64,000 bases of DNA from Gammaproteobacteria bacterium. Its GTDB lineage: Bacteria; Pseudomonadota; Gammaproteobacteria; Steroidobacterales; GCA-2729495. The stretch spans positions 562 to 64,561 of the forward strand of contig RFHQ01000063.1 of the NCBI GenBank assembly GCA_003695765.1. Direction: 5' to 3'. A model generated the notes under the pieces. It did not search any database. It saw nothing but the letters and a program-made list of their open reading frames with translations, and was not told the DNA's origin. The translations under genes were made by a program, and so were the position numbers. How positions within the stretch are numbered: position 1 is the first letter of the stretch; the number at the start of each line of letters is the position of its first letter. Below are positions 2,814 through 42,644 of this stretch, piece by piece.

Positions 2814-4070
<1,257 letters not shown>

Positions 4071-4240
4071 CAGGCCCTCGCCCTGCTCCAGCTCCTCGCG
4101 CGAGACCACGTCTTCGGCAGTAAAGGTCGCGACCTGGTCTTCGTCCTGGCGCCGGCGTCGCCCTTTCTTCTTGCCGCCGGAGTTGCCCCGCGCCGCGTTC
4201 TTGCCGGAACGGCCGCGGGCCGAGTTGCCGAGATATCCCC

Positions 4241-4561
4241 TCATATCGATTCATCCAGGAATTGCGTCAATTGATTCTTTGCCAGCGCGCCGACCTTCTG
4301 TGCCTGCGGCTGCCCGTCCTTGAACAGCATCAGCGTCGGGATGCTGCGGATGCCGTATTGCATCGCCACGGCCTGCAGCTCGTCCACATTCAGCTTGGCG
4401 ACCTTGACCCGGTCGGCGTATTCGTCGGCCACCTGCTCGAGGATCGGCGCGATGGCCTTGCAGGGCCCGCACCACTCGGCCCAGAAGTCCACGAGCACCG
4501 GGGTGCTGGACTGCAGGACCTCGCTCTCGAAGTTATCGCTCGTGATATGCACTATGCTCAT
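4241..4561 (-). CDS. trxA: Thioredoxin 1
   Basis: The product is 106 aa with a WCGPC active site ([11 protein letters not shown]) and overall TrxA-like sequence. It sits upstream of rho and divergent from rhlB, as in E. coli. Confidence 0.97.
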
Positions 4562-4864
4562 CGGTCTGTCCGCTCAGGGTTCTGGTCTCTGGTGCTCGGG
4601 CCCGCAGGCGACGCCCCACTGGCGAAGCCACGGCTTCTGGTGTCATGATGTCGCCGCTTCCCCGTGAAGCCGGCAACTGAATGAGGCAAAATTCAGAAGC
4701 GGTTTCGAAGCTTCCTTCGAATGAATTTCGTCAGCGTGCGGGTATTTAAGCGGGCGCTGGCGGTCAAGGCCGCCGCGTATTACGGTTAATTTGAACCTGT
4801 CCCGCGGCGTTTTGCAAGTGCCCGGACCGCGCTTTTCCGCCGGGTATGGCGAGCACACAGCGAT

Positions 4865-6265
4865 ATGACAGAAGAAACAGCGCCCCGGTTCAGCGAACTT
4901 GGCCTGCCGCCCGAGATCATGGCCGGGATCGCGGCGGCGGGCTTCGAGACCTGCACACCGATCCAGGCGGCAGCGCTGCCGCGCGCGCTGGCTGGCCACG
5001 ATGTCGCCGGTCAGGCGCAGACCGGCACCGGAAAGACGGCGGCCTTCCTGATCGCCGTATTCAATTACCTGTTGACCCACCCGCGGGACTACAGCGGCAA
5101 GCAGTGCGCGCCCCGGGCGCTGATCATGGCCCCGACCCGCGAGCTGGCGGTGCAGATCCACAAGGATGCGCTGGTCCTCGGCAGCGGCACCGATTTCCGC
5201 ATGACCGTGACCTACGGAGGCGCGGATTATGACAAGCAGCGCAACGAGATCGCCGCCGGTACCGACATCCTGATCGGCACGCCCGGCCGGCTCATCGACT
5301 ATCTGAAGCAGGGCATCTACACGCTGAAACATGCCCAGGCGGTCGTGCTGGACGAGGCCGACCGCATGTTCGATCTCGGCTTCATCCGCGACATCCGTTA
5401 CCTGCTGCGGCGCCTGCCGGCGCCCGAAGAGCGCCTGAACCTGCTGTTCTCCGCGACCCTGAGCCAGCGCGTGCTGGAACTCGCCTACGAGCACATGAAC
5501 GACCCGGAACTGGTCCAGATCGAGCCGGACAAGCTGACCGTGGACCGGGTCACCCAGATCGTCTATTTCCCGTCCAACGAGGACAAGCCGCGGCTGCTGG
5601 TGCATCTGCTGCGCAGCATGCACGCGACCCGCACGATGGTCTTCGTCAACATGAAGCGCGACGCCGACTACGTGGCGCGCCTGCTGCAGGCCAACGGCTT
5701 CGAGGCCGAAGCGATCTCCGGCGATGTGCCGCAGCGCAAGCGGCTGCGGATGCTGCGCGATTTCGTGTCCGGCGAACTGCCCGTGCTGGTGGCCACCGAT
5801 GTCGCCTCGCGGGGACTGCACGTGCCGGACGTCAGCCACGTGATCAACTACGACCTGCCGCAGGATGTCGAGGACTACGTGCACCGCATCGGCCGCACGG
5901 CCCGCGCCGGCGCCACCGGTGACTCGATCAGCTTCGCCTGCGAGACCTATGCCTTCACCCTGCCGGACATTGAGGAATACATCGGCCATCGCATCCCGGT
6001 TGGCAGCTACGACCCGGACGAGCTGCCCCAGCTGCAGCGGCCGGCGCCGAGACCGCCGCGTGCCGGCGGGCGGCGCGGTGGCGAGCGGCGGGGCCAGCGC
6101 GGCGACGGCCGCGGGCGCCGCCCGGCCAAGCGCGCCCAGGCGGACGAGGCCGCACCGGCCCCGAAGTCGGGGCGCGAGCAGGCCGGCAGCGAGACCGGCG
6201 CCCCGAAACGCCGGCGCCGGCGACGCCGGCGCAAGACCACAGCCAAGGGCGGCCCCGGCGACTAG
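4865..6265 (+). CDS. rhlB: ATP-dependent DEAD-box RNA helicase RhlB, with an Arg-rich C-terminal tail
   Basis: Motifs present are the Q-motif (TPIQ), AQTGTGKT, DEAD (VLDEADRM), SAT and HRIGRTARAG. Synteny with trxA-rho is conserved. The tail is RRGGERRGQRGDGRGRR...KRRRRRRRRK. Confidence 0.9.
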   Translation: MTEETAPRFSELGLPPEIMAGIAAAGFETCTPIQAAALPRALAGHDVAGQAQTGTGKTAAFLIAVFNYLLTHPRDYSGKQCAPRALIMAPTRELAVQIHKDALVLGSGTDFRMTVTYGGADYDKQRNEIAAGTDILIGTPGRLIDYLKQGIYTLKHAQAVVLDEADRMFDLGFIRDIRYLLRRLPAPEERLNLLFSATLSQRVLELAYEHMNDPELVQIEPDKLTVDRVTQIVYFPSNEDKPRLLVHLLRSMHATRTMVFVNMKRDADYVARLLQANGFEAEAISGDVPQRKRLRMLRDFVSGELPVLVATDVASRGLHVPDVSHVINYDLPQDVEDYVHRIGRTARAGATGDSISFACETYAFTLPDIEEYIGHRIPVGSYDPDELPQLQRPAPRPPRAGGRRGGERRGQRGDGRGRRPAKRAQADEAAPAPKSGREQAGSETGAPKRRRRRRRRKTTAKGGPGD

Positions 6266-7811: not shown

Positions 7812-8007
7812 TGCCGCCGAGGCCGAGCGGCTTGCGGGCGCCACGCTGCCGCTCGCCTCGACCGGTCCGGGGCTGCTAACATAGGCCTGCCTGCCGGGCA
7901 GCGCCTGCTGACGGCGAAGCCGGTCGCAAGGGCCGGATACGGTCGGCGGAACCGGCGCCAAACAACAACGCAGTGTGCAAGGCCTGCCCGCAGTCGAGTC
8001 AGACGAG

Positions 8008-8223
8008 ATGACTGACAACGTCGAAATAGGCACATTTGGCAATTACGCGCGCCTGAAGGAGCTCCGCGTCGAACACCGCGATCTGGACATCGCGATTGCG
8101 GAGCTGTCCCGGAATCCGAACGTCGATCAGCTGCGAGTGCGGCGGCTCAAGAAGCAGAAGCTGCGCCTGAAGGACATGATCGCGCACCTGGAGAACCAGT
8201 TGATTCCGGATCTGGACGCCTGA
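8008..8223 (+). CDS. DUF465/YdcH-family small protein
   Basis: The product is 71 aa with the characteristic LRVRRLKKQKLRLKDMIAHLE motif. Start taken at MTDNVEIG, inside track ORF 7975..8223. Confidence 0.75.
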   Translation: MTDNVEIGTFGNYARLKELRVEHRDLDIAIAELSRNPNVDQLRVRRLKKQKLRLKDMIAHLENQLIPDLDA

Positions 8224-8621
8224 GCCGGGCATCCGGGTTCCGGCGGCACGCGTGATCAGGCCGGCGGGAGGGCGGGCCCTCCCGATGACGGCGCGGACCG
8301 CGCCGGGGATTCTTTTATCCCGACACCGCCCGTTCCTGGCGGCTCCGTCCGCGCGCCCACGCGCTGTCGGCTTTCCTGACAATGGCGGGCCAGCTACAAG
8401 CCATTGATTCCAGATTGGTTCCTGCCAGAGCCGTGAGCTGCCTCACGCACCTGCGCAACGCGCTTGTCGCAGATTCTTACAAACGGCGGTTCGACCGCGG
8501 CGGCCGCGGCTGGCCGCCGACCCTGCCTGCTGTCCGGCGCCGGTCTTTTTTCGTGACCGGCGTCACAACATGAGGCCGCTGCGCCGGCTTCTGTCAAATC
8601 AGCGGCCTGGCGAGCCGTCAC

Positions 8622-8637
8622 TGGCACGAATGCTGCA
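8622..8637 (+). promoter_or_regulatory. Candidate sigma-54 (RpoN) -24/-12 promoter
   Basis: TGGCACGAATGCTGCA compared with the consensus TGGCACG-N4-TTGCW. The GG (8623-8624) and GC (8635-8636) dinucleotides are correctly spaced, and there is one mismatch (C for T at position 12). It lies in a non-coding gap and points at the CA-rich region. Confidence 0.6.
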
Positions 8638-8647
8638 ACTACCGGGG

Positions 8648-8812
8648 CGAGACACAACACAGCCATCAGTTCTCCTTCCTGAAAACGCAAGAACCAACAA
8701 CGCACAGCCAACCCCGGCCCGACAACAACAACGACAAACGGGCCAGACAACAACAATAAGAACGACAATATCCGCGCCCATCCCACCGCCCCTTCCCGGG
8801 GCGGTTTTTTTT
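8648..8812 (+). ncRNA. Candidate small RNA of about 165 nt, G-poor and CA-rich with repeated A-R-N triplets, possibly a CrcZ-like Hfq-binding sRNA. The 5' end is inferred from the promoter only.
   Basis: The stretch lies between the sigma-54 promoter and a strong intrinsic terminator. It contains AAGAACCAACAAC (8689-8701), ACAACAACAACGACAAAC (8722-8739, in the loop of a GGCCC/GGGCC hairpin) and ACAACAACAATAAGAACGACAATA (8747-8770). It also contains a CU-rich stretch UCUCCUUCCU (8671-8680). There is no credible ORF. Confidence 0.55.
8786..8812 (+). terminator. Rho-independent terminator
   Basis: The stem pairs CCGCCCC (8786-8792) with GGGGCGG (8798-8804) around the loop TTCCC. It is followed by eight T residues (8805-8812). 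Confidence 0.85.
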
Positions 8813-8865
8813 GTCTGCGCCCATCCCGATGTTGCAATCCGGCAGGCGGCGGGTATCGTCACGCG

Positions 8866-9624
8866 ATGCCCCGCATCGCACCGCCCCCTGCCAGCCGGCA
8901 CCTGGCCCTTTTCCTGGACCTGGACGGGACCCTGGTGCCGATCGCCGACCGGCCCGAAGACGTGCATGCCGACGGCGAGTTGCTGGCGCTGCTCGCAGCG
9001 CTGCAACAGGCGCTGGACGGCGCGCTGGCCATCGTCTCCGGGCGCAGCATCGCCGGCATCGACGCGGTGCTCGCGCCCTTGCGGCTCCCGGCGGCGGGCC
9101 TTCACGGCCTGGAACTGCGCGGCGGCGATGGCAGCGTCGAACGGCTTGCCAGTGCCAGCGTGCCGGCCGCCACCCGCGAGCGCCTGGCAGAACTGGTTGC
9201 GCGCCATCCCGGGCTGCTGCTGGAAGACAAGGGGCCCTGCCTGGCCCTGCACTACCGCGGCGCACCGGAACTGGCCGGCGTCGCCGAGGCCGCCGTCGGC
9301 GAGGAATTGCAGCGTCTCGGTCCCGATTACCTCCTCCAGCGTGGCAAGATGGTGCTGGAACTGAGACCGGCGGGCGCCAGCAAGGGCACGGCCGTCGAAC
9401 GCCTCGCGAGCCGGCCGCCCTGGGCGGGCCGGCGACCGGTCTACATTGGTGACGATGCAACCGACGAACACGGCTTCGAGGCGGTCAACCGGCTCGGCGG
9501 AGACAGCATCCGGGTCGCAGCGGCAGCGGAACCGACCGCGGCCCGCTGGCGGCTCGCGGACGAGGCCGCCGTGCGCCGCTGGCTCGCCGCACTCGTCGCC
9601 CCCGACTCGCAGCACTGCGCATGA
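8866..9624 (+). CDS. otsB: Trehalose-6-phosphate phosphatase
   Basis: The HAD-IIB motif LALFLDLDGTLVPIA is present with overall OtsB-like sequence. It is the first gene of the ots operon. Confidence 0.9.
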   Translation: MPRIAPPPASRHLALFLDLDGTLVPIADRPEDVHADGELLALLAALQQALDGALAIVSGRSIAGIDAVLAPLRLPAAGLHGLELRGGDGSVERLASASVPAATRERLAELVARHPGLLLEDKGPCLALHYRGAPELAGVAEAAVGEELQRLGPDYLLQRGKMVLELRPAGASKGTAVERLASRPPWAGRRPVYIGDDATDEHGFEAVNRLGGDSIRVAAAAEPTAARWRLADEAAVRRWLAALVAPDSQHCA

Positions 9625-26285: not shown

Positions 26286-27626
26286 TCAGCGAAGGTCGGC
26301 GGCGGGCCACGCGCCCGCGGGCAGTTCGCCGTCCGGCAGCAAGCGGACCTGGACGCGATGATTGGCCACCGCCGCGCGGTTCCAGTCCCCGGCCAGAGCG
26401 CTGCCGTCGGCCGGGTACGGAGCCGGCGGCAGGCGCTCGCCCGCATCGGCGATCTCGATCCGCACCGGCCCGCCACGGTCCTCGAGTTCGGCACGGAAAT
26501 TCGCGAAGGCCCGCGACTCCAGCACCGCGCCACCGCCCGGCGCCGCCGGCGGCTCGCCGAAGCGGGTGCAGGCATCGACCGGCAGATCGGCCGGCGCCGG
26601 CTGCCAGTTACCGTCGCGGTCCGGCACCAGGCAGAAATCGCCGCGCTGTACCACCAGTCGCACCGTGCCGCTGAAGCCGATCCTTTCCAGCCGCTCGACC
26701 AGGCCGCGAAGCAGTTCGACGCGCGCGTCGCCGAGGGGCGGCTCGCCGGGCGGGTAGGCGCCGGCCTGGTTCAGGCCCCATTCCAGCGTCGCGAGATAGT
26801 CGTCGTACTGGCGCAACAGCGACGCCCTTTCTGCGTCCAGGTACTCGCGGATGCCGGCATCGTCCTCGGCGTCGGCCTTGCGTTGCCGCTCCAGCGCGGC
26901 GAGCAGTTCGGCGTTGCGGTCCGCGGCCGCCTGCCAGCGCGCCTGACCGTCGAGTTGCAGCCAGAACAACAGCGCGGCCAGCCCGGCCAGCGCCAGCGAC
27001 AACCAGCGACCGGCGCCGGGGCGGTGCTCGCGCGCAGCCTGCGCCGCCGACAGGGTCGCCAGCCGCTCGTCGAGCACGCGGGAGACGCTCTGCTCGATGT
27101 CCTCCCGCAGGCTGCGGCCATGGTGGCCGAGCATCTGCCGGAACCAGCGGTGCAGGTCGTCCCAGTCCGCGGGCCGCAGCGCCCGGTCGACCGCGTCGCG
27201 ATGGCTGGCGGCGCGTTGCGCGACCGCCGTGCTGCCCGCCGGCTCACCACCGTCCGGCACCAGATGCAGCGAGCGCAGCAGCTCGTCCACTTCCACCGGC
27301 TTGATCTGCTTCGGCAGCACGCCGACGGCGCCGAGCGCGCGCGCCTGACTGACGTACAGCTCGCCCGCCTGCGAGGTATACATCATGATCGGGATGGTCG
27401 CCGTATCGGGATTGTTCTTGATCGCCCGGACGGCCTGAAAGCCGTCCATGCCGGGCATCATGTGATCCATGAAAATGACGTCCGGACGGCTGTGGCTGAG
27501 GTATTCGAGCGCTTCTTCGGCCGAGGCCGCAGTCTCGACCTGCATGTCGTAACGCTCGAGGATGCGCGCCAGGAAGTGCCGCGCGGTGCGGGAATCGTCG
27601 ACGATCAGCGCGCACTTATGTGCCAT
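26286..27626 (-). CDS. Response-regulator receiver protein with one predicted transmembrane segment and a C-terminal domain of about 210 aa of unknown function
   Basis: The REC domain shows LIVDDS, DVIFMDHMMPGMDG, MYTS and K. It is followed by a hydrophobic stretch (WLSLALAGLAALLFWLQL) and then a domain with no motif I recognise. Confidence 0.85.
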   Translation of the reverse strand: MAHKCALIVDDSRTARHFLARILERYDMQVETAASAEEALEYLSHSRPDVIFMDHMMPGMDGFQAVRAIKNNPDTATIPIMMYTSQAGELYVSQARALGAVGVLPKQIKPVEVDELLRSLHLVPDGGEPAGSTAVAQRAASHRDAVDRALRPADWDDLHRWFRQMLGHHGRSLREDIEQSVSRVLDERLATLSAAQAAREHRPGAGRWLSLALAGLAALLFWLQLDGQARWQAAADRNAELLAALERQRKADAEDDAGIREYLDAERASLLRQYDDYLATLEWGLNQAGAYPPGEPPLGDARVELLRGLVERLERIGFSGTVRLVVQRGDFCLVPDRDGNWQPAPADLPVDACTRFGEPPAAPGGGAVLESRAFANFRAELEDRGGPVRIEIADAGERLPPAPYPADGSALAGDWNRAAVANHRVQVRLLPDGELPAGAWPAADLR

Positions 27627-27891
27627 CGGCCAGCCCGTCTCCAGCCACCGGTCGTCCCGATTTTACGTTGAATCGCCAGTATTTTCGCGGCCTGGCGCAC
27701 ATTTCCGCGACCGGCCCTTGTGGCGCCGGGCGAATGGCGCGATGCTATGCGCTGCCGTCGGCGCAACGCCGGTCCGAACAAGTAACGACAAACAGCACCG
27801 ATGCGCGGTTCGCCCGAGAGGGCAACGGCCGCGCCCCGAGCAGCCGGCCATCCGAGCCCGGCCTTTCGTCCGGCGGCAGCGAGAACCCAGG

Positions 27892-29946
27892 ATGAAGCAG
27901 ATCTTCCGTATACCCCGTTACCTGATGGTCGGTGCGAGCGTCATGCTCCTGACCACGCTGGTGACCGGGCTGGCCGTGCTGCTGCTGCACGTAGAACCGG
28001 TCACGAATTTCGCCAGCCAGCCGCTGCCGACGGTCCTGATGGCGCTGCTGGTGCTCGGCTGCGGCGTCGCGGCCGGTGTCGCGGCGGCCGTCGTCCAGCG
28101 GCATCGCGAGGACATCCGGGGCGTCGTCGCCGCGGTCGAGGCGCTCGAGGAAGGCGAGCTGGACACCTGGCCGCCGGCGCCGTTCGACGGAGACCTGGGC
28201 CAGCTCGCGCAGGCGTTCCGGCGGCTGCAGCAGCGCCTGAAGAAACTCACGGTCTCGCGCAACTACCTCGACCAGGTGCTCGCGAGCATGCAGGACGCGC
28301 TGCTGCTGGTCGGCGCGGACGGCCGCATCAAGCGCGTCAACCCAGCGGCCTGCGAACTGCTGGAAGCCACCGAGTCCGAGCTGCTGGGGCGGCCGGTCGT
28401 CGAACTGATCGCCCCGGCGCAGCGCGCCCAGTTCGGCGGCGAGCGGCGGCCGGATCCGCGCGGTGAAGCGATCATGTTGAGCCTGCGCGGGCGCGAAGTG
28501 CCGGTCGCCTACACCTGGTCGCCGATCGAGGCCACCGAACCCGACCTGTCGGGCGCCATCATCGCCGTGCGCGACATCACCGAACGCAAGCTGGCCGACC
28601 GGCGCATTCGCTATCTCGCGCGCATCGATGCCCTGACCAAAGTGCCGAACCGGATGCAGTTCCAGCACCTGCTGCAGCGGGCGATCGCGCGGGCACGGCG
28701 CGCACATGGTCATGTCGCGCTGCTGTATGTCGATATCGACCGCTTCAAGGACATCAACGACACCTTCGGGCATGCCGCCGGCGACGCGGCACTGGAGACC
28801 CTGGCGCGGCGGGTCACGAACCTGCTGCCCTCGGGCGCCTTCATGGGGCGGCTGGCGGGTGACGAATTCGGCGTCGTGCTGTTCCCGCGGGAGCCGGTGA
28901 GGCCGGACAACGGCGAACTGGGCCGCCTGGTGCAACGCATCCGGCGTGCTGTCGGCGAGGTACTGCTGGTCCAGGGGCATGAGCTGTATATCAGCGTCAG
29001 TATCGGCATCGCCGGCTTCCCGACCGATGCCGACAATGTGCTGGACCTCATTCGCAATGCCGATGCCGCGCTCTACGAAGCCAAGAGCGCCGGCGGCAAC
29101 CGGGTCGAGTACTACCGCCCGGAAATGAACGCCGCCCAGGTCGAGCGCCTGATCCTGAAGAGCCAGCTCCGCCGCTCCTACGAACTCGACGAGCTGCTGA
29201 TCAACTACCAGCCGAAGGTCTCCGTGCGCAGCGGCCGGATCGCCGGCGCCGAGGCCCTGGTCCGCTGGGACCTCAGCGAACACGGCCTGATCCTGCCGTC
29301 CGAATTCATCCCGCTGGCCGAGGAGACCAATCTGATACTGGAGATCGGCGAGTGGGTGCTGAATCGGGTCTGCGCCGACTACGCCGAATGGCGGCGGCAC
29401 GGCAGCCAGCCGGGGCGGATTTCGGTGAATCTCTCGCTGAAGCAGCTGGCCCAGCCGAATTTCTCGCGGCGGATCGGGCGGATATTGAAACGTCACGGCA
29501 TCACACCCGAATGCCTGGAACTGGAACTGACCGAGACCACGCTGATGGCCGATCCGGAGCGCACGATCGCCGTGCTCCGGGAGCTGCACGACATGCGCCT
29601 GCACCTGGCGATCGACGACTTCGGCACCGGCTATTCTTCGCTGAGCGCCCTGCAGAAATTCCCGATCTCGACGCTGAAGATCGACCAGTCCTTCGTCGCC
29701 AACGCGGCCAGCGACGCTGACGACGCGACGATGATCGCGACCATGGTGGACATGGCGCACCGGATGCACATGGAAGTCGTTGCCGAGGGGGTCGAATCCG
29801 AGGAGCAGCTGAGCCTGCTGCGCCGCCTCGATTGCGATTACGTCCAGGGACTGCTGTTCGGCGAGCCGATGAGCGCGCGCGCCTACCGCGACCTGATCGA
29901 CGCCCAGCGCGACGGTACCGATTCCTACCGGGCCTTGTTCGGCTGA
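27892..29946 (+). CDS. Membrane-bound HAMP-PAS-GGDEF-EAL signalling protein (c-di-GMP turnover)
   Basis: An N-terminal TM segment and a PAS domain (LASMQDALLLVGADGRIKRVNPAA) are present. The GGDEF domain carries AGDEF, and the EAL domain carries EALVRW, DDFGTGYSS and QG. Start taken at ATG 27892 within track ORF 27562..29946. Confidence 0.9.
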   Translation: MKQIFRIPRYLMVGASVMLLTTLVTGLAVLLLHVEPVTNFASQPLPTVLMALLVLGCGVAAGVAAAVVQRHREDIRGVVAAVEALEEGELDTWPPAPFDGDLGQLAQAFRRLQQRLKKLTVSRNYLDQVLASMQDALLLVGADGRIKRVNPAACELLEATESELLGRPVVELIAPAQRAQFGGERRPDPRGEAIMLSLRGREVPVAYTWSPIEATEPDLSGAIIAVRDITERKLADRRIRYLARIDALTKVPNRMQFQHLLQRAIARARRAHGHVALLYVDIDRFKDINDTFGHAAGDAALETLARRVTNLLPSGAFMGRLAGDEFGVVLFPREPVRPDNGELGRLVQRIRRAVGEVLLVQGHELYISVSIGIAGFPTDADNVLDLIRNADAALYEAKSAGGNRVEYYRPEMNAAQVERLILKSQLRRSYELDELLINYQPKVSVRSGRIAGAEALVRWDLSEHGLILPSEFIPLAEETNLILEIGEWVLNRVCADYAEWRRHGSQPGRISVNLSLKQLAQPNFSRRIGRILKRHGITPECLELELTETTLMADPERTIAVLRELHDMRLHLAIDDFGTGYSSLSALQKFPISTLKIDQSFVANAASDADDATMIATMVDMAHRMHMEVVAEGVESEEQLSLLRRLDCDYVQGLLFGEPMSARAYRDLIDAQRDGTDSYRALFG

Positions 29947-31082
29947 GACCGGCCGTAGCCGGTCAACTCCATGTAACCGCGACCCAGCCGGCGCTCGCCA
30001 GCGACTGACAGGACGTCGACGACTCCCTCCCAGTAGCGTACCGACAGGTCCTGTTCCTGGTCGGCAACTGCCGCGCGCAGCAGCAGCGATGGCTCGGCCA
30101 GCCAGTCCAGCCGCCAGCTCACGGGCCAGCGAATGCCGGTTCGCGGGCTGCGCCAATGCGCGACCGGACGCAACTGGAAATCCTGCACAGCCAGTGGCAC
30201 GCGATCGCCATTCGCGGTCACCAGACTGCCAGCGGACACGGCCTGCGGGCGGCCCTGCGCATCGCGCAACACGTAGAGCATCAGCTCGCGACCGTCGTCC
30301 AGCTGCAGGCCGAACCAGTCCCAGCCGACGACCCCGGGCGGCAGGCTGCTGCTGCTCCATTCGCGATCCAGCCAGGCGGAGCCGCTGACCATCAGCGGCT
30401 CCCCGCCCAGCAGCAGCACGCCGCTGACCGGCAGGCGCGTGTAGCTGTAATACCAGGAGGCGTTGCCCGGTTCCGGCCCTTTGGCGCTGAGGCCGGCATT
30501 GCCATGAAAAACCGGCGGCTTGCCCGGCGCGAGCCGCAGTGCCAGCGTCGCGTCGAGCTCGGCATCGCCGGCCTGCAAGGACAGTGGCAGAAAGCTCTCA
30601 CCGTCGCTGCGTGCCGACCAGTCATCCAGCCAGACTGCGAACGGCGCGCCTTGCACGCCGGCGATCCCGGCATAGGGCCGGGCAAAACGCTCGACGGCCC
30701 GGTGGTCGCCGCGACTGACATCGGTCAAGGCGAAATGAGCGAAATAGAGCTGATTGCGACTGTCGGCCGATGCCGGTGCCAGCGGAAACAGCGCATGACG
30801 GAAGAAGGTGAGCTGAAAACCAAAGCGCCGGCCACCGGCTGCGTCCAGGTGGCCGGTGAAATACCACCACTCGGTGCGGTAATCCGGATGCGGGCCATGA
30901 TCGCGGGGCAATTCGATCCGCCCCGGCGCCTGCGCTCGCCGAAACCCGGCCGGACTGGCATCGCCGCCGAGCAGGCTGGCCACGTCGACCGCGGGCGCGA
31001 CCGGATCGCCCGCGGGCCGGCTCAGCCACCAGGCCGAGAGCAGCAGGCCGACGACGAGCAGGGCGAGGAGCCAGCGTCCCAT
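29925..31082 (-). CDS. AttH/CrtC-like lipocalin-fold protein (hydroxyneurosporene synthase family)
   Basis: An N-terminal anchor is followed by HPDYRTEWWYFTGHL and FGFQLTFFR, which are typical of AttH-like proteins. It lies directly downstream of an FtsX-type ABC system, as in the attEFGH arrangement. Confidence 0.8.
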   Translation of the reverse strand: MGRWLLALLVVGLLLSAWWLSRPAGDPVAPAVDVASLLGGDASPAGFRRAQAPGRIELPRDHGPHPDYRTEWWYFTGHLDAAGGRRFGFQLTFFRHALFPLAPASADSRNQLYFAHFALTDVSRGDHRAVERFARPYAGIAGVQGAPFAVWLDDWSARSDGESFLPLSLQAGDAELDATLALRLAPGKPPVFHGNAGLSAKGPEPGNASWYYSYTRLPVSGVLLLGGEPLMVSGSAWLDREWSSSSLPPGVVGWDWFGLQLDDGRELMLYVLRDAQGRPQAVSAGSLVTANGDRVPLAVQDFQLRPVAHWRSPRTGIRWPVSWRLDWLAEPSLLLRAAVADQEQDLSVRYWEGVVDVLSVAGERRLGRGYMELTGYGRSQPNKAR

Positions 31083-39070: not shown

Positions 39071-39088
39071 ATTCGAACTGGACTCGAT

Positions 39089-40558
39089 ATGACTCAACCG
39101 GTCGTAGGCATCAGCGGGTTTTCCATCTACCTGCCACCTTTTCGCGTAGACCTGCGCGCGTGGTCGGAATGGACCGGCGCCAACTGGGACAAGATCCGCT
39201 CGGTCGTCGGCACGGGCTTTCGCCTGCTCGGCCCCGGCCAGAGCGTTTACACGATGGCGGCAAACGCGGTATTGCAGCTGCTGCGCAATTACGACATCGA
39301 TCCGGGCCGGGTCCGTTACCTGGCCCTCGGCACCGAGTCGAGCACCGACAACTCGGCCGGTGCGATCATCATCAAGGGCATGGTCGACAGCGCGCTGCAG
39401 GCCAACGGGATGCCGCCCTTGTCGCGCCACTGCGAGGTACCGGAGTTCAAGCACGCCTGCCTGGGCGGCGTCTACGGGCTCAAGAACGCGCTGCGTTTCC
39501 TGCTGGCCGATGCCGATGACGATTCGGTCGCGATCGTGGTGTCGGCCGACAAGGCGCTGTACCGGCAGGGCAGCAGCGGTGAACCGACACAGGGCGCCGG
39601 CGCTGTCGCGGTCCTGCTGGAACGCAATCCGCGAATCGCCCGCATCGACCTGCGCGAGGCGGGCACCGCGTCGGACTATCGCGGTGTCGATTTCCGCAAA
39701 CCGCTGATCAACCGCAACGGTACCGGCGCGAGCCCCGAGTTCGTCGACATTCCGGTATTCAACGGCAAATATTCCACCAGTTGCTACATCGACGAGTGCC
39801 AGCACGCGCTGGAAGACATGTACGCGCGCCGCGGCCTGAAGGCCGGCGAATATCTGCGCGGCCTGCGCGCGGCGTTCCTGCACCGGCCCTATCGCCGCAT
39901 GCCGGAGTCCGGCTGGAGCATGGCCTATCTGTTCGCGCTCGCCGGCGGCGACGACAGCGACCATCAGGAGTTGCAGGTCTATTGCAGCAAGGCCGGCGTC
40001 GACCCGCAGGCGCTGCTCGCCGAATTGCGGCAGCCGCCGCGCCTGAGCGAATTCGCCAGCCGCGAACGTATCGGCGAGGAAGTGTTCCCGCTATCGCTGG
40101 CCGTGCTGCGCGAGTTCCGTCGTGACCCGGCCTTCCAGGACATCGTCAAGGCCAAGCTGCGGCTGGGCGCCGAGGCCATGTGCGAACTGGGCAACCTCTA
40201 CACCGGCGCCCTGCCCGCCTGGGTTGCGGCCGGCCTGACCGAAGCCGTCGAGACCGGCGAAGAACTGGCCGGCGAGGAAATCCTGATGATCGGCTACGGC
40301 AGCGGAGACGCCGCCGACGCGATGCCGATGCACATCGTGCCCGGCTGGCAGGAAGCCGCTCGCGCCATCCGTTTCGCCGAGGCCCTGCAACCGGTCGTCG
40401 AACTGAACCACGAGCAGTACCAGGCGATCCGCGAGCGCGGCGAAGCCGCGCAGCTGGACTATCAGCCGCACGGTGAGTTCATCGTCGAGCGCGTCGGCGC
40501 CGAATCCGCGGCGTCCTTCCAGGACGCCGGCATCGAGTACTACCGCTACGTACAGTAG
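39089..40558 (+). CDS. mvaS: Hydroxymethylglutaryl-CoA synthase-family enzyme
   Basis: GTESSTDNS, the catalytic region EFKHACLGG and GEPTQGAGAVAVL match HMGS motifs. At 489 aa it is longer than typical bacterial MvaS. Confidence 0.85.
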   Translation: MTQPVVGISGFSIYLPPFRVDLRAWSEWTGANWDKIRSVVGTGFRLLGPGQSVYTMAANAVLQLLRNYDIDPGRVRYLALGTESSTDNSAGAIIIKGMVDSALQANGMPPLSRHCEVPEFKHACLGGVYGLKNALRFLLADADDDSVAIVVSADKALYRQGSSGEPTQGAGAVAVLLERNPRIARIDLREAGTASDYRGVDFRKPLINRNGTGASPEFVDIPVFNGKYSTSCYIDECQHALEDMYARRGLKAGEYLRGLRAAFLHRPYRRMPESGWSMAYLFALAGGDDSDHQELQVYCSKAGVDPQALLAELRQPPRLSEFASRERIGEEVFPLSLAVLREFRRDPAFQDIVKAKLRLGAEAMCELGNLYTGALPAWVAAGLTEAVETGEELAGEEILMIGYGSGDAADAMPMHIVPGWQEAARAIRFAEALQPVVELNHEQYQAIRERGEAAQLDYQPHGEFIVERVGAESAASFQDAGIEYYRYVQ

Positions 40559-40563
40559 GCCCG

Positions 40564-41589
40564 TCAGCCACCCAGCTCGACGCCCGGCACCGCCAGCTGC
40601 AGTTCCGGCACCGCGTAACCGGCTTCGCGAAAGGCCGCGCGCAAGGCCTGCGCGCGTTCCGGATCGTCGGTGAACGCGATGCCGAAGTCGCCGCCACCGG
40701 CACCGGAGGTCTTGTAGACGGCGCCTACGCGGGCCGCGATCGCCGCCAGTTCCCGGTGTTCCGGCGTCAGGATGCCGATCCGGCCGGCGCGGTCCACTGC
40801 CGCCAGTGCAGCGGCGAACTCGCTGACGGCGGCCAGGATGCCGGTGATCTCGCCGCGCTCCCAGGCGTCGGCCGCCAGGCGCGCCGCGGCCCCGAGCTCG
40901 CCGATCGCGCCGGCCGCCCGGCCGCCGGCTTCTTGCAGCGCCGCGTAACGGACCAGCATCGCCGGCGTGCTGGCCGGCCTCCCGGACCACGCGAGCACCG
41001 GCAACAGCCCGGCGGGCCAATCCAGGCGCCGGCAGGCCGAGGCCCCGCGCAGCGGCTCCGCACGCAGCAGGCCCCCGTGCAGGGCGCTGAGCACGTCGAT
41101 GCCGCTGCCGCGGCCGCCCTGAAAGCGCCGGTGCGCGGCCAGCAGCAACGCGCCGAGTTCCTCCGGTGCCGGGCGCAGCGCCCAGGCCGGCAGCAAGGCC
41201 GCCGCCAGCGCCACCAGCACGGCAGCGCTGGAGCCCAGTCCGGCCTTGGCACGGCCGCCGGCCCCGTCGTCGAACTGCAGGGCCCCGCTGTCCAGCTCGA
41301 TCTCCACGGGCCGCGGCTGCCAGTCCCATGGACCCGCGCGCAACTCCGCGACCAGCGCCGCGAGCAGCGCGCCGCGTTCGCCCGGTTCGGCGCCGGTCCA
41401 TTGCAAGCCCGAGTCGCGGTGGCAACGGAAGGGCCAACGCCCGCCGCCGCTGGCCAGCCAGCTGCCGGTCGCCGGCCGCACGATCGCATGGGCCCGGGCG
41501 TCGACGGCGGCGACCACGGCCGGCGCGCCGTCCAGTACCGCGTACTCGCCGCAGATCAGTAGCTTGCCCGGGGCACTGGCCTCAGTCAT
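40564..41589 (-). CDS. mvaK2: GHMP-family kinase, most like phosphomevalonate kinase (ERG8/MvaK2 type)
   Basis: The N-terminal PGKLLICGEYAVLDG is typical of PMK, whereas mevalonate kinases have GEHAVV. The GHMP motif GLGSSAA is present. It overlaps the mvaD stop by 8 nt. Confidence 0.75.
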   Translation of the reverse strand: MTEASAPGKLLICGEYAVLDGAPAVVAAVDARAHAIVRPATGSWLASGGGRWPFRCHRDSGLQWTGAEPGERGALLAALVAELRAGPWDWQPRPVEIELDSGALQFDDGAGGRAKAGLGSSAAVLVALAAALLPAWALRPAPEELGALLLAAHRRFQGGRGSGIDVLSALHGGLLRAEPLRGASACRRLDWPAGLLPVLAWSGRPASTPAMLVRYAALQEAGGRAAGAIGELGAAARLAADAWERGEITGILAAVSEFAAALAAVDRAGRIGILTPEHRELAAIAARVGAVYKTSGAGGGDFGIAFTDDPERAQALRAAFREAGYAVPELQLAVPGVELGG

Positions 41590-42565
41590 CGCCTGTCAGC
41601 AGCCGGGCGCCTTCGCCGAGCCCGCCGCGAATGGTCCGCAGAACGCCCGGGATGGCCGCGAGGCGTTGCTCGATCTCGGCCGCCGCAGCCGGTTCGCAGA
41701 CCGCCTTGACCTGCGGGCCGGCATCCACGGTGAAGAACACCGGCAACCCGTCCCGCCGCCATTGCTGGATCGCCTGCAGGCAGGCCAGCGTTGCCGGGGA
41801 CCAGTACAGCAATGGTGGCCGCGTCGTCAGCATGACCGCATGCATCTTCAGGCAATTGTGCTCGGCGAGCTCGGCCAGCGCCGGGAAATCGCGGGTGGCA
41901 ATCGACGCTTCGGCCGCCGCAAGATCTGCCGGCTGGGTCTGCAGCCAGGCCGGGTAATAGGGTGAACTGTCGCGGCTGAGGCGCATGCCATCGCGGGAGC
42001 TGGTGGCCTTCGGCGCTTCGGTGGTCACGGCGACGACTACCTCCAGCGGCCAGTCCGCCGCGGCCAGCAGGGAGCGGCAGCGGGTCTGCTCGCCGTGCTG
42101 TTCCAGCCGCACGAAACCGCCGTACAGCGAGCGCGGAGCCGAGCCGGAACCGATCCGCGCGATATCGACCAGCCGCGGCTCGCCGGCAGGGATGCCCAGC
42201 GCTGCGGCCGCGGCCACCGTCAGCGCCGCGTAACCGGAAGCCGAAGAGGCGAGGCCGGCGCCGGTCGGGAAATCGTTCCGCGACTCGACGCGCGCCCGCC
42301 AGCCGATGCCGGCCAGGCTCCGCAGTGCATCGAGGCAGGCCGTCAGCCGTGCCTGCTCGCCAGGCGCACGCCGACCGTTCAGCCAGAGTTCGTCGTCGGC
42401 GAATTCCGGGTCGAAGGCGACGGTGCTGCGCGATTGCATGGCGCCCAGCGTGATCGACAGCGAGTCGACCGCGGGCAGGTTGGCCTCGCCGTCGTCGCGC
42501 TTGCCCCAGTATTTGATCAGGGCGACATTGGGGTGGGCGACAGCCGTCGCGCGCATTCGGGCCAT
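41582..42565 (-). CDS. mvaD: Diphosphomevalonate decarboxylase
   Basis: PNVALIKYWGKRD, SLSITL, AGLASSASG and FTVDAGPQV are present. The start may instead be the internal ATG at 42556. Confidence 0.88.
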   Translation of the reverse strand: MARMRATAVAHPNVALIKYWGKRDDGEANLPAVDSLSITLGAMQSRSTVAFDPEFADDELWLNGRRAPGEQARLTACLDALRSLAGIGWRARVESRNDFPTGAGLASSASGYAALTVAAAAALGIPAGEPRLVDIARIGSGSAPRSLYGGFVRLEQHGEQTRCRSLLAAADWPLEVVVAVTTEAPKATSSRDGMRLSRDSSPYYPAWLQTQPADLAAAEASIATRDFPALAELAEHNCLKMHAVMLTTRPPLLYWSPATLACLQAIQQWRRDGLPVFFTVDAGPQVKAVCEPAAAAEIEQRLAAIPGVLRTIRGGLGEGARLLTGDD

Positions 42566-42644
42566 GGCGGGATACAGCCTGCAAACCGCGGAGCGGCGGC
42601 ATTATAGCGGCAGCCGACGAATCGAAGGTTTATCATCTCGCCCC

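What the first reader, a model, noticed from the sequence alone, without database searches (positions are those of the whole stretch)
8622..8812. Candidate sigma-54-driven, CA-rich (ARN-repeat) small RNA resembling Pseudomonas CrcZ, in the only large non-coding gap
Seen in the sequence: TGGCACGAATGCTGCA (8622-8637) matches the RpoN consensus TGGCACG-N4-TTGCW with correct GG/GC spacing and one mismatch. About 10 nt downstream begins a stretch of roughly 165 nt that is strikingly G-poor and A/C-rich. It carries three blocks of A-R-N triplets: AAGAACCAACAAC; ACAACAACAACGACAAAC, displayed in the loop of a GGCCC/GGGCC hairpin at 8716-8744; and ACAACAACAATAAGAACGACAATA. The stretch ends in a textbook intrinsic terminator, a 7-bp GC stem followed by eight U. 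It has no credible ORF. A CU-rich stretch UCUCCUUCCU (8671-8680) resembles the 16S anti-Shine-Dalgarno sequence and could pair with ribosome-binding sites. Established knowledge: the Pseudomonas sRNAs CrcZ, CrcY and CrcX are transcribed from RpoN/CbrB-dependent promoters. They carry several AAnAAnAA (CA) motifs that titrate Hfq/Crc to relieve catabolite repression, and (ARN)n is the known Hfq distal-face motif. Inference: this may be an analogous Hfq sponge in a non-pseudomonad. Alternatively it may be a terminator-controlled leader of the otsB-GH15-otsA-glk operon, whose start lies only 53 nt past the terminator.
Basis: partly seen in the sequence, partly recalled or inferred. Interest (0 to 1): 0.8.

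Follow-up and report, generated by a model that had tools for sequence, protein, structure and literature searches.

The report
Conserved sigma-54-driven AAN-repeat small RNA
A non-coding RNA gene of about 165 bases, with a sigma-54-type promoter, a large rigidly spaced upstream enhancer and a strong terminator, sits at the same spot in nine uncultured gammaproteobacterial genomes; its A-A-N repeat tracts suggest it works through the RNA chaperone Hfq, as Pseudomonas CrcZ does, but it is not related to CrcZ.

Summary
Window 8622-8637 is a -24/-12 (sigma-54) element. Positions 8646-8812 are the most A+C-rich stretch of the 64 kb and end in a 7-8 bp GC hairpin plus U8.

What makes it more than chance is conservation. 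The same element lies between a DUF465 gene and otsB in nine distinct uncultured Gammaproteobacteria whose OtsB proteins are only 52-76% identical. These parts are kept:
- the promoter TGGCAYG-N4-MTGCA;
- a 5' block CAACACAGCC;
- a hairpin with compensatory changes and an (AAC)n loop;
- a single-stranded (AAN)5-7 tract;
- an invariant CGCCCAU box;
- the terminator.

Upstream, five protein-site-like blocks keep their spacing to within 1-2 bp in all nine genomes.

No reading frame is conserved on either strand, and no Rfam family matches. In one genome a 1.3-kb gene separates the RNA from otsB, and otsB keeps its own promoter-like box, so the RNA is not an otsB leader.

Best reading: a new, independently transcribed, sigma-54-dependent sRNA that binds Hfq. 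It is analogous to CrcZ but not homologous to it. Whether it mainly base-pairs with targets or titrates Hfq is unresolved. Transcription, RpoN dependence and Hfq binding are all untested.

The parts
8365..8381 (+). Enhancer site A1, TGTCGGCTTTCCTGACA (TGTCG-N7-YTKACA), centred about -273 from the inferred start
   Evidence: Present at -272 to -274 in all 9 orthologues. The pattern occurs only twice in the 64 kb, both times here, with 0.03 expected.
8397..8410 (.). Conserved block CAAGCCATTGATT(C). In the window it fits the IHF consensus in reverse orientation
   Evidence: Conserved columns in alignment A2. The IHF-type match is found in the window only; the consensus WATCARNNNNTTR is taken from PMC3045617. 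Weak evidence.
8433..8446 (.). Enhancer site B1, GTGAGCTGCCTCAC (GTGR-N6-TCAC, the core of CRP-family sites), centred about -206
   Evidence: Present at -205.5 to -207.5 in all 9. There are 3 matches in the window, 2 of them here, with 0.5 expected.
8465..8481 (+). Enhancer site A2, TGTCGCAGATTCTTACA, centred about -173
   Evidence: Present at -172 to -174 in all 9.
8553..8566 (.). Enhancer site B2, GTGACCGGCGTCAC, centred about -87
   Evidence: Present at -86.5 or -87.5 in all 9.
8592..8598 (+). TGTCAAA, which looks like a half A site, centred at -51
   Evidence: TGTYAAA at -51 in 8 of 9; L067 has the variant TAGTTAAA at the same position.
8622..8637 (+). Sigma-54-type -24/-12 promoter TGGCACGAATGCTGCA
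   Evidence: TGGCAYG-N4-MTGCA is kept in all 9 orthologues at a fixed distance from the conserved 5' block. It is the only such match in the window.
8646..8812 (+). Predicted sRNA, about 165 nt. The start is inferred at 8646-8648 from the promoter geometry; the end is the U8 tract
   Evidence: Covariance model R1 matches this region at 169.6 bits and the other orthologues at 69-170 bits. No Rfam family matches. Stops and non-3n indels break every frame in some orthologue.
8648..8666 (+). 5' conserved single-stranded block CGAGACACAACACAGCCAT, a candidate seed; CAU would be the anti-start codon
   Evidence: Invariant in the 4 closest orthologues. CAAC(A/G)CAGCC is recognisable in 8 of 9. Predicted unpaired.
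8671..8680 (+). CU-rich anti-Shine-Dalgarno stretch UCUCCUUCCU
   Evidence: UCUCC lies 4-6 nt after the CAU in 6 of 9. It is replaced by a short hairpin in L061 and L062 and is absent in L063.
8716..8744 (+). Hairpin GGCCCG/CGGGCC with a 17-nt A/C loop containing (AAC)n
   Evidence: 4 of its 6 pairs show changes on both sides across orthologues. The loop carries ARN runs in most orthologues.
8749..8763 (+). Single-stranded (AAN)5 tract AACAACAATAAGAAC
   Evidence: Runs of 5-7 ARN triplets at this position in 8 of 9. The two A positions are kept and N varies. Local shuffles give p about 0.002-0.05 for AAN runs in 8 of 9.
8770..8784 (+). C-rich box ATCCGCGCCCATCCC; the core CGCCCAU is invariant
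   Evidence: CGCCCAT is invariant in all 9. Its function is unknown.
8785..8812 (+). Intrinsic terminator ACCGCCCC-UUCCC-GGGGCGGU followed by U8
   Evidence: Found by the terminator scan. Kept in all 9, with two pairs changed on both sides in L066 and G-U pairs that fit only the + strand.

Best explanation
Window 8646-8812 (+) is an independent gene for a trans-acting small RNA of about 165 nt.

Transcription (inferred):
- RNA polymerase with sigma-54 starts at the conserved -24/-12 element (8622-8637).
- It is activated from an enhancer of about 260 bp by an unidentified enhancer-binding protein.
- The likely activator sites are the TGTCG-N7-YTKACA sites at -273 and -173, and the TGTCAAA at -51.
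- A CRP-family-type protein probably also takes part, at GTGR-N6-TCAC at -206 and -87.
- Transcription stops at the GC hairpin plus U8.

Action (inferred):
- The RNA presents two unpaired (AAN)5-7 tracts, one in the loop of a covarying hairpin and one just 3' of it. Each is about the length that fills the six A-R-N pockets of the distal face of an Hfq hexamer.
- It also presents a U8 tail suited to the proximal face.
- I therefore expect it to be an Hfq-bound sRNA of the class II type.
- It would use its invariant single-stranded blocks to pair with translation-initiation regions of mRNAs encoded elsewhere and repress them. Those blocks are the 5' CAACACAGCCAU, the anti-SD UCUCC in most members, and CGCCCAU.
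- When strongly induced it would also compete for Hfq.

Shown: the sequence features, their conservation, hairpin covariation, absence of coding potential, and independence from otsB.
Inferred: the transcript itself, RpoN dependence, Hfq binding and base-pairing to targets.

Separate confidences: independent non-coding RNA gene about 0.85; sigma-54 dependence about 0.7; Hfq binding through AAN tracts about 0.55.
For: Conservation:
- Nine distinct orthologues lie in the same suhB-DUF465-[RNA]-otsB context, although OtsB is only 52-76% identical.
- The promoter, 5' block, hairpin, AAN tract, CGCCCAU box and terminator are all conserved.

Structure:
- 94% of pair cells form standard pairs. Six pairs show changes on both sides. 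0 of 500 shuffles reach the observed values, and slid controls collapse.
- G-U pairs fit only the + strand.

AAN tracts:
- ARN runs of 5-7 triplets sit at fixed positions, with the two A kept and N varying.
- AANAANAA is enriched.
- The tracts are predicted unpaired in every fold.

Enhancer:
- The enhancer blocks keep their spacing to within 1-2 bp in all nine although the sequence between them diverges.
- The motifs are nearly unique to this locus in the window.

Non-coding:
- No frame is conserved on either strand.

Independence from otsB:
- L066 has a 1.3-kb insertion between the RNA and otsB.
- The box TTGCAAT...GGTATCGTCACGCG-ATG stays with otsB.

Literature:
- A-R-N motifs, six distal pockets of Hfq, and CrcZ with six A-rich stretches transcribed from an RpoN/CbrB promoter (PMC4063720).
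Against: - There are no expression data of any kind.
- The organisms are uncultured, and hfq, rpoN and the activator were not seen. No EBP signature (GAFTGA) occurs in the 64-kb window, and none of these genes appears in the Pfam survey.
- The -24/-12 match on its own is at chance level.
- The AAN periodicity is only modestly significant per sequence, and the sequences are related. L063 has only short tracts.
- No complementary target site above chance was found in the window or in the neighbouring genes.
- The anti-SD is missing in 3 of 9.
- The proteins that bind the enhancer are guesses. The A sites differ by one base pair in spacing from the GlrR consensus read here and from the NifA and TyrR boxes as recalled from memory.
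Confidence: 0.55

Rival explanations
1. A pure CrcZ-like protein sponge. The RNA has no base-pairing targets. Its only job is to sequester Hfq, with or without a Crc-like partner, on its AAN tracts when the sigma-54 activator is on. That would release mRNAs held repressed by Hfq on A-rich ribosome-binding sites.
For: - It combines a sigma-54 promoter with several AAnAAnAA motifs in unpaired regions, the combination described for CrcZ (PMC4063720).
- The two tracts of 15-21 nt match the capacity of one hexamer each.
- CRP-type sites in the enhancer would fit a link to carbon status.
Against: - There are only two tracts, against six in the 407-nt CrcZ.
- The most strongly conserved parts are not the A-rich tracts but CAACACAGCC and CGCCCAU. 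A pure Hfq sponge would not need these.
- CbrAB is described as exclusive to pseudomonads (PMC6296734), and no CbrB subsites are present.
- There is no homology to CrcZ.
- Whether Crc exists in this lineage is unknown.
Confidence: 0.25
2. A 5' leader or attenuator of the otsB-GH15-otsA-glk operon. The sigma-54 promoter drives the operon, and the terminator is a regulated stop, for example through Hfq or a metabolite.
For: - The element lies 53 nt upstream of otsB on the same strand in 8 of 9 genomes.
- Some read-through is always possible.
Against: - In L066 a 1.3-kb OMP-like gene on the opposite strand, with its own terminator, separates the RNA from otsB. The RNA, its promoter and its enhancer are nevertheless intact.
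- A conserved box TTGCAWT-N16-TATCKT-N6-ATG stays directly in front of otsB in all nine. This suggests an own promoter and a leaderless mRNA.
- No conserved antiterminator alternative exists. The only G-rich partner, the 5' GGGGCG, is specific to the window.
- More distant otsB operons lack the element.
Confidence: 0.06
3. A small protein gene on the minus strand, possibly a type I toxin with an antisense RNA. The minus strand reads GGAAGGAGA-ACTG-ATG GCT GTG TTG ..., a textbook ribosome-binding site plus start codon. In the window it opens a 90-codon frame across the promoter and enhancer region. The rigid spacing would then reflect coding constraint.
For: - SD plus ATG on the minus strand in 6 of 9.
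- The frame is open for about 90 codons in the two high-GC genomes, and a gene was called there in L045.
Against: - The ATG is absent in L062, L063 and L067.
- A 1-nt indel between the ATG and the promoter puts L061, L062 and L066 in another frame, while the downstream spacing stays fixed.
- Stops occur after 34 codons in L046, L048, L061 and L066.
- The peptide sequences are unrelated after MAVL.
- The gene callers found nothing there in the other genomes.
- The conserved blocks are palindromes typical of protein-binding DNA.
Confidence: 0.03
4. A conserved DNA-level regulatory region only. The conserved blocks, including the 'RNA' part, are protein-binding sites that control DUF465 or otsB, and no stable RNA with a function of its own is made.
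For: The intergenic region carries many conserved, palindromic, rigidly spaced blocks.
Against: - Compensatory changes keep two hairpins. G-U pairs, the U8 tract and the strand-asymmetric A/C composition make sense only for a + strand transcript.
- The element stays intact when separated from otsB.
Confidence: 0.05

Closest known systems
Pseudomonas/Azotobacter CrcZ, CrcY, CrcX (Hfq/Crc-titrating RNAs)
   Same: - Sigma-54-type promoter with an upstream enhancer.
- Several AAnAAnAA (A-R-N) motifs in unpaired regions.
- Intrinsic terminator.
- Non-coding.
- Expected to contact the distal face of Hfq (PMC4063720).
   Different: - No sequence or structure similarity (no Rfam hit).
- About 120-167 nt with two A-rich tracts, against 407 nt with six.
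- The upstream sites are not the CbrB subsites TGTTAC/GTAACA.
- It lies next to DUF465/otsB, not next to cbrB.
- It carries invariant non-A-rich blocks (CAACACAGCC, CGCCCAU) that look like seeds.
- The host lineage is an uncultured gammaproteobacterial group, whereas CbrAB is reported as exclusive to pseudomonads (PMC6296734).
Class II Hfq-dependent base-pairing sRNAs of enterobacteria (ChiX, MgrR, CyaR); from my own knowledge, not checked here
   Same: [quoted passage not shown] This combination binds the distal and proximal faces of Hfq. They have a short conserved seed and can compete strongly for Hfq.
   Different: No homology. Those sRNAs use sigma-70 promoters. The AAN tracts here are much longer (5-7 triplets, in two copies).
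GlmY/GlmZ promoters (sigma-54, GlrR/QseF, IHF)
   Same: An sRNA gene driven by a sigma-54 promoter with several upstream TGTC...GACA-type inverted repeats and an IHF-like block (PMC3045617).
   Different: The GlrR consensus is TGTC-N10-GACA; the spacing here is N9, and the second half is often TTACA. There is no Rfam GlmY or GlmZ hit. The additional CRP-type sites are not part of the glmY design.
NrsZ (P. aeruginosa) and GlnZ; RpoN-dependent sRNAs of the NtrC regulon
   Same: sRNAs whose synthesis depends on RpoN (PMC9731577).
   Different: No NtrC-type TGCACC...GGTGCA sites upstream. Location and architecture differ, and there is no Rfam hit.
Rfam suhB / MmgR (alpha-proteobacterial sRNA)
   Same: A suhB gene lies two genes upstream, and the RNA has a CU-rich anti-SD stretch. 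There is a weak cmscan hit.
   Different: The hit scores 15.9 bits against a gathering score of 41 and covers only the terminator. The host is a gammaproteobacterium. Not a member.

Membership tests
CrcZ/CrcY/CrcX | Sequence and structure similarity to the Rfam covariance models of the family | tested here: not met
   No match at gathering score in the window. No CrcZ-type match at E<=10 in 8200-9000 or at E<=1 in four orthologous loci.
CrcZ/CrcY/CrcX | RpoN (-24/-12) promoter | tested here: met
   TGGCAYG-N4-MTGCA is conserved in 9 of 9 at a fixed distance from the RNA 5' block. This is at sequence level only; activity was not tested.
CrcZ/CrcY/CrcX | CbrB-binding subsites TGTTAC / GTAACA upstream (PMC6296734) | tested here: not met
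   Neither hexamer occurs in 8224-8645. The conserved sites have other sequences.
CrcZ/CrcY/CrcX | Several A-rich AAnAAnAA motifs in unpaired RNA | tested here: met
   4 matches in the window RNA and 2-8 in the orthologues. They are predicted unpaired.
CrcZ/CrcY/CrcX | Location next to cbrB, in a genome with crc | tested here: not met
   The flanking genes are DUF465 and otsB in all nine. No EBP gene lies in the 64-kb window. Presence of crc elsewhere in the genome could not be checked.
CrcZ/CrcY/CrcX | Binds and titrates Hfq (distal face) | not testable with these tools
   Needs EMSA, co-IP or genetics.
Class II Hfq-dependent sRNA | Rho-independent terminator with a U tail of at least 6 | tested here: met
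   A 7-8 bp GC stem plus U7-U9 in 9 of 9.
Class II Hfq-dependent sRNA | Single-stranded ARN motif | tested here: met
   (ARN)5-7 in 8 of 9.
Class II Hfq-dependent sRNA | Hfq-dependent stability and base-pairing with mRNA targets | not testable with these tools
   No target above chance in the sequence held here. Whole genomes and experiments are needed.
GlmY/GlmZ | GlrR sites TGTC-N10-GACA upstream of a sigma-54 promoter, and the GlmY/GlmZ RNA fold | tested here: not met
   No TGTC-N10-GACA; the sites are TGTCG-N7-YTKACA, that is N9. No Rfam hit.
Rfam suhB/MmgR | Score at or above the gathering threshold (41 bits) | tested here: not met
   15.9 bits, E=1.6, terminator only.
Transcription attenuator / leader of otsB | Contiguous with the regulated ORF, no promoter in between, and a conserved alternative (antiterminator) fold | tested here: not met
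   L066 has a 1.3-kb insertion. A conserved promoter-like box lies next to otsB. The consensus fold contains only the two hairpins.
Protein-coding gene (either strand) | An open frame conserved across orthologues | tested here: not met
   Stops in all three + frames in L061, L062 and L066, and in all three - frames in L063 and L066. The minus-strand ATG frame is not conserved.

The most novel reading that the evidence does not exclude
An uncultured gammaproteobacterial lineage that is not expected to have CbrAB/Crc has independently evolved a compact CrcZ-like regulator. It would be a sigma-54-driven RNA whose two hexamer-length (AAN)n tracts sequester Hfq. It would be switched on by a composite enhancer that combines an unknown enhancer-binding protein with a CRP-family protein taking the architectural place usually held by IHF. 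That would make Hfq titration by a sigma-54-controlled RNA a convergent, general solution for global metabolic switching rather than a pseudomonad peculiarity.
Probability: 0.25. Interest if true: 0.75.

Novelty: new variant of a known kind. Interest (0 to 1): 0.55.

Why it matters
- Sigma-54-dependent sRNAs are few: GlmY/Z, Qrr, CrcZ/Y/X, NrsZ and GlnZ. The Hfq-titrating CrcZ type is known only from Pseudomonadaceae.
- This is a well-delimited new family with a conserved promoter, an unusually ordered enhancer, AAN tracts and candidate seeds, in a lineage known only from metagenomes.
- It gives a concrete case for testing whether the CrcZ principle arose more than once.
- It offers a new enhancer architecture to assign to an activator.
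- It can seed a new covariance model for annotating such genomes.
- It also corrects the annotation of a spurious minus-strand ORF called in one genome (L045).

Tried and rejected
1. Rfam at gathering score on the window, and at permissive E-values on the locus and on four orthologous loci. Only chance-level hits appeared: mir-1203, suhB/MmgR at 15.9 bits, AgvB and STnc560.
2. The GTDB genome scan with OtsB returned 42 loci at 53% identity or less. None has a CA-rich element or a match to model R1.
3. The metagenome scan with the invariant 18-mer GAGACACAACACAGCCAT gave 12 hits, 11 by chance and 1 the already known L046 contig.
4. otsB operons of Thioalkalivibrio sp. XN8 (L064) and of a 3.9-Mb MAG (L065) have a different upstream context and no R1 hit.
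5. Search for a paralogue in the 64-kb window: none.
6. Search for target sites complementary to the CGCCCAU box and the 5' block in the window and in the neighbouring genes of all loci: nothing above chance.
7. The minus-strand ORF with a perfect SD plus ATG was examined and rejected.
8. Taxonomy through Rho homologues gave only names of the type 'Gammaproteobacteria bacterium'.
9. A search for an EBP signature (GAFTGA) among window ORFs of at least 80 aa found none. A Pfam survey of 48 of them showed no Hfq, RpoN, Crc or CRP domains.
10. Assigning the enhancer sites to a known activator failed. CbrB, GlrR, NifA, NtrC and IHF patterns do not match, apart from one IHF-like block found only in the window.
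11. Literature searches for the conserved sequences and for sigma-54-dependent sRNAs found no prior description.
Full report
1. THE OBSERVATION

- TGGCACGAATGCTGCA at 8622-8637;
- the CU-rich UCUCCUUCCU at 8671-8680;
- the hairpin GGCCCG (8716-8721) / CGGGCC (8739-8744) with the loop ACAACAACAACGACAAA;
- the following ACAACAACAATAAGAACGACAATA;
- a terminator at 8785-8805 (8 pairs, 7 of them GC) followed by eight T.

otsB (Pfam Trehalose_PPase) starts at 8866. It is followed by GH15, a further long ORF that I did not scan in the window but whose position matches the GT20 (otsA) gene of the orthologous loci, and glucokinase. Upstream lie a DEAD-box helicase, a HAD hydrolase on the minus strand, an inositol monophosphatase (suhB-like) and a DUF465 gene ending at 8223.

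Significance differs between features:
- The promoter match is the only one in the 64 kb, but about 0.9 such matches are expected by chance with one mismatch allowed.
- The composition is a clear outlier. The best 120-nt window has 79% A+C against 67% for the next best in the window, and G is only 16%.
- AANAANAA is strongly enriched, with 12 matches against 1.6 expected. Four of the 12 fall inside 8724-8762.

2. CONSERVATION

The best OtsB matches there are 53% identical or less and carry no such element.

OtsB and Rho homologues from the large protein collection led to eight other distinct genomes or contigs with the same gene order: rho, trx, DEAD, HAD, suhB, DUF465, a gap of about 600 nt, otsB, GH15, otsA, glk. 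These are L045 (OtsB 76% identical), L046, L048, L061, L062, L063, L066 and L067. L001 and L002 are the same species as the window at 99.8% identity. The only names attached to these proteins are 'Gammaproteobacteria bacterium' MAGs.

The gap aligns along its whole length. A covariance model built from seven sequences (R1) recovers the two further orthologues at 84-88 bits. It finds nothing else in 288 kb of held sequence. That includes the rest of the window, the distant otsB loci, and the otsB loci of Thioalkalivibrio sp. XN8 and another MAG, which lack the suhB-DUF465 context.

A metagenome scan with the invariant 18-mer found only a contig already known. The family therefore appears confined to one uncultured lineage.

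3. ANATOMY OF THE RNA

Across the nine orthologues (119-167 nt) the order of parts is as follows.
(a) A 5' single-stranded block CAAC(A/G)CAGCC(AU). The 19-mer CGAGACACAACACAGCCAT is invariant in the four closest genomes.
(b) A variable module. In six genomes it is UCUCC, 4-6 nt after the CAU. In L061 and L062 it is a short hairpin. In L063 it is largely missing.
(c) A hairpin whose stem changes from GGCCCG/CGGGCC to GCCUGA/UCAGGC, GGCCUG/CAGGCC or GAGCC/GGCUC, and whose loop is A/C-rich.
(d) A single-stranded A-rich tract.
(e) The invariant CGCCCAU box.
(f) The terminator and a U7-U9 tail.

On the model-derived alignment 94% of pair cells are standard pairs. Six of 14 pairs show changes on both sides. 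0 of 500 column shuffles reach the observed covariation, and slid controls collapse. Since that alignment was fitted to the model's structure, the pair counts lean towards it. G-U pairs occur that would be C-A on the other strand, so the + strand is the folded one. Single-sequence folds predict the two hairpins and leave the A-rich tracts unpaired.

The A-rich tracts are periodic. The tract after the hairpin reads:
- AAC AAC AAU AAG AAC in the window;
- AAU AAU AAU AAA AAA AAU in L061;
- AAU AAC AAU AAC AAC AAG in L066;
- AAU AAG AAG AAA AAU AAA AGC in L067.

The two A positions are kept while the third varies among all four bases. Runs of 5-7 triplets are found in 8 of 9. Shuffling the local 75 nt gives p of about 0.002-0.05 per sequence for AAN runs. 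This is modest, and the sequences are not independent, but the substitution pattern is what selection for A-R-N triplets would give.

4. NOT CODING

The long frames that cross the element in the window (for example 8570-9364 on + and 8394-8837 on -) are open because of the 69% G+C content.

In the orthologues the element varies in length by amounts that are not multiples of three. Stops interrupt all three + frames in L061, L062 and L066, and all three - frames in L063 and L066.

One thing deserved a closer look. The minus strand of the 5' part reads GGAAGGAGA-ACTG-ATGGCTGTGTTG, a textbook ribosome-binding site and start codon, and a gene was called there in L045. The reasons to reject it as a gene are:
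- The ATG is missing in three genomes.
- A 1-nt indel shifts the frame in three others while the downstream spacing stays fixed.
- Stops follow after 34 codons in four genomes.
- The peptides are unrelated beyond MAVL.

I read this instead as the RNA carrying an 'anti-initiation-region' sequence, that is anti-start codon plus anti-SD at natural spacing. This is an inference.

5. PROMOTER AND ENHANCER

TGGCAYG-N4-MTGCA is kept in all nine genomes. It lies 24 nt before the point where RNA conservation begins, which puts the start at about 8646-8648. This follows from the known geometry of sigma-54 promoters.

Upstream, conserved blocks occur at nearly identical distances in all nine genomes, although the sequence between them is diverged:
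- TGTCG-N7-YTKACA at -273 and -173;
- GTGR-N6-TCAC at -206 and -87;
- TGTYAAA at -51.

In the window these lie at 8365-8381, 8465-8481, 8433-8446, 8553-8566 and 8592-8598. Both motifs are essentially unique to this locus in the 64 kb.

What the sites resemble:
- GTGR-N6-TCAC is the core of CRP/Vfr/Clp-type sites (established consensus TGTGA-N6-TCACA). L063 has the perfect TGTGACGTGCGTCACA.
- The TGTC-type sites resemble sites of NtrC-family activators but match none that I could check. GlrR is TGTC-N10-GACA (PMC3045617). CbrB uses TGTTAC/GTAACA subsites (PMC6296734). Neither occurs here, nor do NifA-, NtrC- or IHF-type patterns, except for one IHF-like block at 8397-8410.

No enhancer-binding protein signature (GAFTGA) occurs among window ORFs of at least 80 aa, and no Hfq, RpoN, Crc or CRP domains appeared in the Pfam survey. 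The rigid spacing is not a coding artefact (section 4).

That the site at -87 sits where IHF usually bends sigma-54 promoters, and so might be occupied by a bending CRP-type protein, is speculation.

6. INDEPENDENCE FROM otsB

In L066 a 1.3-kb segment lies between the RNA terminator and otsB. It carries an OMP-like gene on the opposite strand with its own terminator. The RNA, promoter and enhancer remain intact on the DUF465 side. The box TTGCAAT...GGTATCGTCACGCG remains directly in front of the otsB ATG.

That box is conserved in all nine genomes. TATCKT always lies six nt before the start codon, and no Shine-Dalgarno is present. It looks like a sigma-70-type promoter for a leaderless otsB mRNA. 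It matches 8 of 12 consensus positions, below the scan's threshold, so this is an inference. No conserved antiterminator fold exists. The leader or attenuator reading is therefore unlikely.

7. MECHANISM

Established knowledge:
- The distal face of an Hfq hexamer binds A-R-N triplets in six pockets.
- U-rich 3' tails bind the proximal face.
- The 407-nt CrcZ is transcribed from an RpoN/CbrB promoter and titrates Hfq through six A-rich stretches (PMC4063720).

Here two unpaired tracts of 15-21 nt, plus U8, fit an RNA that occupies both faces of Hfq. I commit to an Hfq-bound, sigma-54-induced sRNA.

The strongest primary-sequence conservation lies in the non-A-rich single-stranded blocks (CAACACAGCC, CGCCCAU). 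I therefore favour a class II-type base-pairing regulator that also competes for Hfq (0.55) over a pure sponge (0.25). No target could be found in the sequence held, so the choice between these needs whole genomes and experiments.

8. COMPARISON WITH KNOWN FAMILIES, AND NOVELTY

The element works like CrcZ in design: sigma-54 promoter plus AAnAAnAA tracts. It fails the membership tests that could be run: no model hit, no CbrB sites, different context, and about 40% of the size.

It is not GlmY/GlmZ, NrsZ or MmgR either. Text searches found no earlier description.

I class it as a new variant of a known kind: a new sRNA family that is analogous to the sigma-54-driven, ARN-rich Hfq regulators but not homologous to them.

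Interest is moderate to good. The comparative case for a real, regulated RNA gene is strong and the enhancer is unusual. Against that, every functional statement is inferred, and the hosts are uncultured.

Noticed in passing
window 8832-8865: TTGCAATCCGGCAGGCGGCGGGTATCGTCACGCG abuts the otsB ATG. It is conserved in all nine orthologues, with TATCKT exactly 6 nt before the start codon and no Shine-Dalgarno. It looks like a promoter for a leaderless otsB mRNA. It stays with otsB when the RNA is separated from it in L066.
   Followed up: partly
window 8655-8679, minus strand: A perfect SD plus ATG (GGAAGGAGA-ACTG-ATGGCTGTGTTG) lies antisense to the 5' end of the RNA. A gene was called here in L045 (4556-4801). 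The frame and the start codon are not conserved, so it is probably spurious. It may mirror the initiation region of a target mRNA whose protein would begin MAVL.
   Followed up: yes
L066 4191-5555: A 1.3-kb insertion carrying an OMP-like beta-barrel gene (called at 4529-5239, no Pfam hit on record) lies between the RNA and otsB, on the strand opposite to both.
   Followed up: partly
window 8773-8782 and 8816-8825: GCGCCCATCC occurs twice, on either side of the terminator. The second copy is present only in the window genome.
   Followed up: partly
window 7961-7969: AACAACAAC lies about 40 nt upstream of the DUF465 start codon (8008). It is shared only with L045, so it is probably not a conserved Hfq site.
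   Followed up: yes
window 39071-43559: Mevalonate-pathway genes lie together: an HMG-CoA synthase-like gene, a GHMP kinase, diphosphomevalonate decarboxylase and a polyprenyl synthase. To my knowledge (not checked here) this pathway is uncommon in Gammaproteobacteria. A CrtC-like gene lies at 29925-31082 (-).
   Followed up: no
window 2814-4244 (-): Rho is 476 aa, with an N-terminal extension relative to the 418-aa forms deposited for the same lineage. Its closest relatives are all unnamed MAG proteins.
   Followed up: no
L061 409-476 (+): A sub-threshold Rfam hit to Pseudomonas sRNA P10 (32.6 bits against a gathering score of 37, E=1.4e-4) lies inside the region of the HAD hydrolase gene.
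   Followed up: no
window 26286-29946: A 458-aa protein in which only a receiver domain is recognised lies next to a HAMP-PAS-GGDEF-EAL protein. Neither has a sigma-54 activator domain.
   Followed up: no
window 8289-8305: A GC hairpin with a weak T tract lies 66 nt after the DUF465 stop codon. It is a likely terminator of DUF465, which would separate that gene from the enhancer of the RNA.
   Followed up: no
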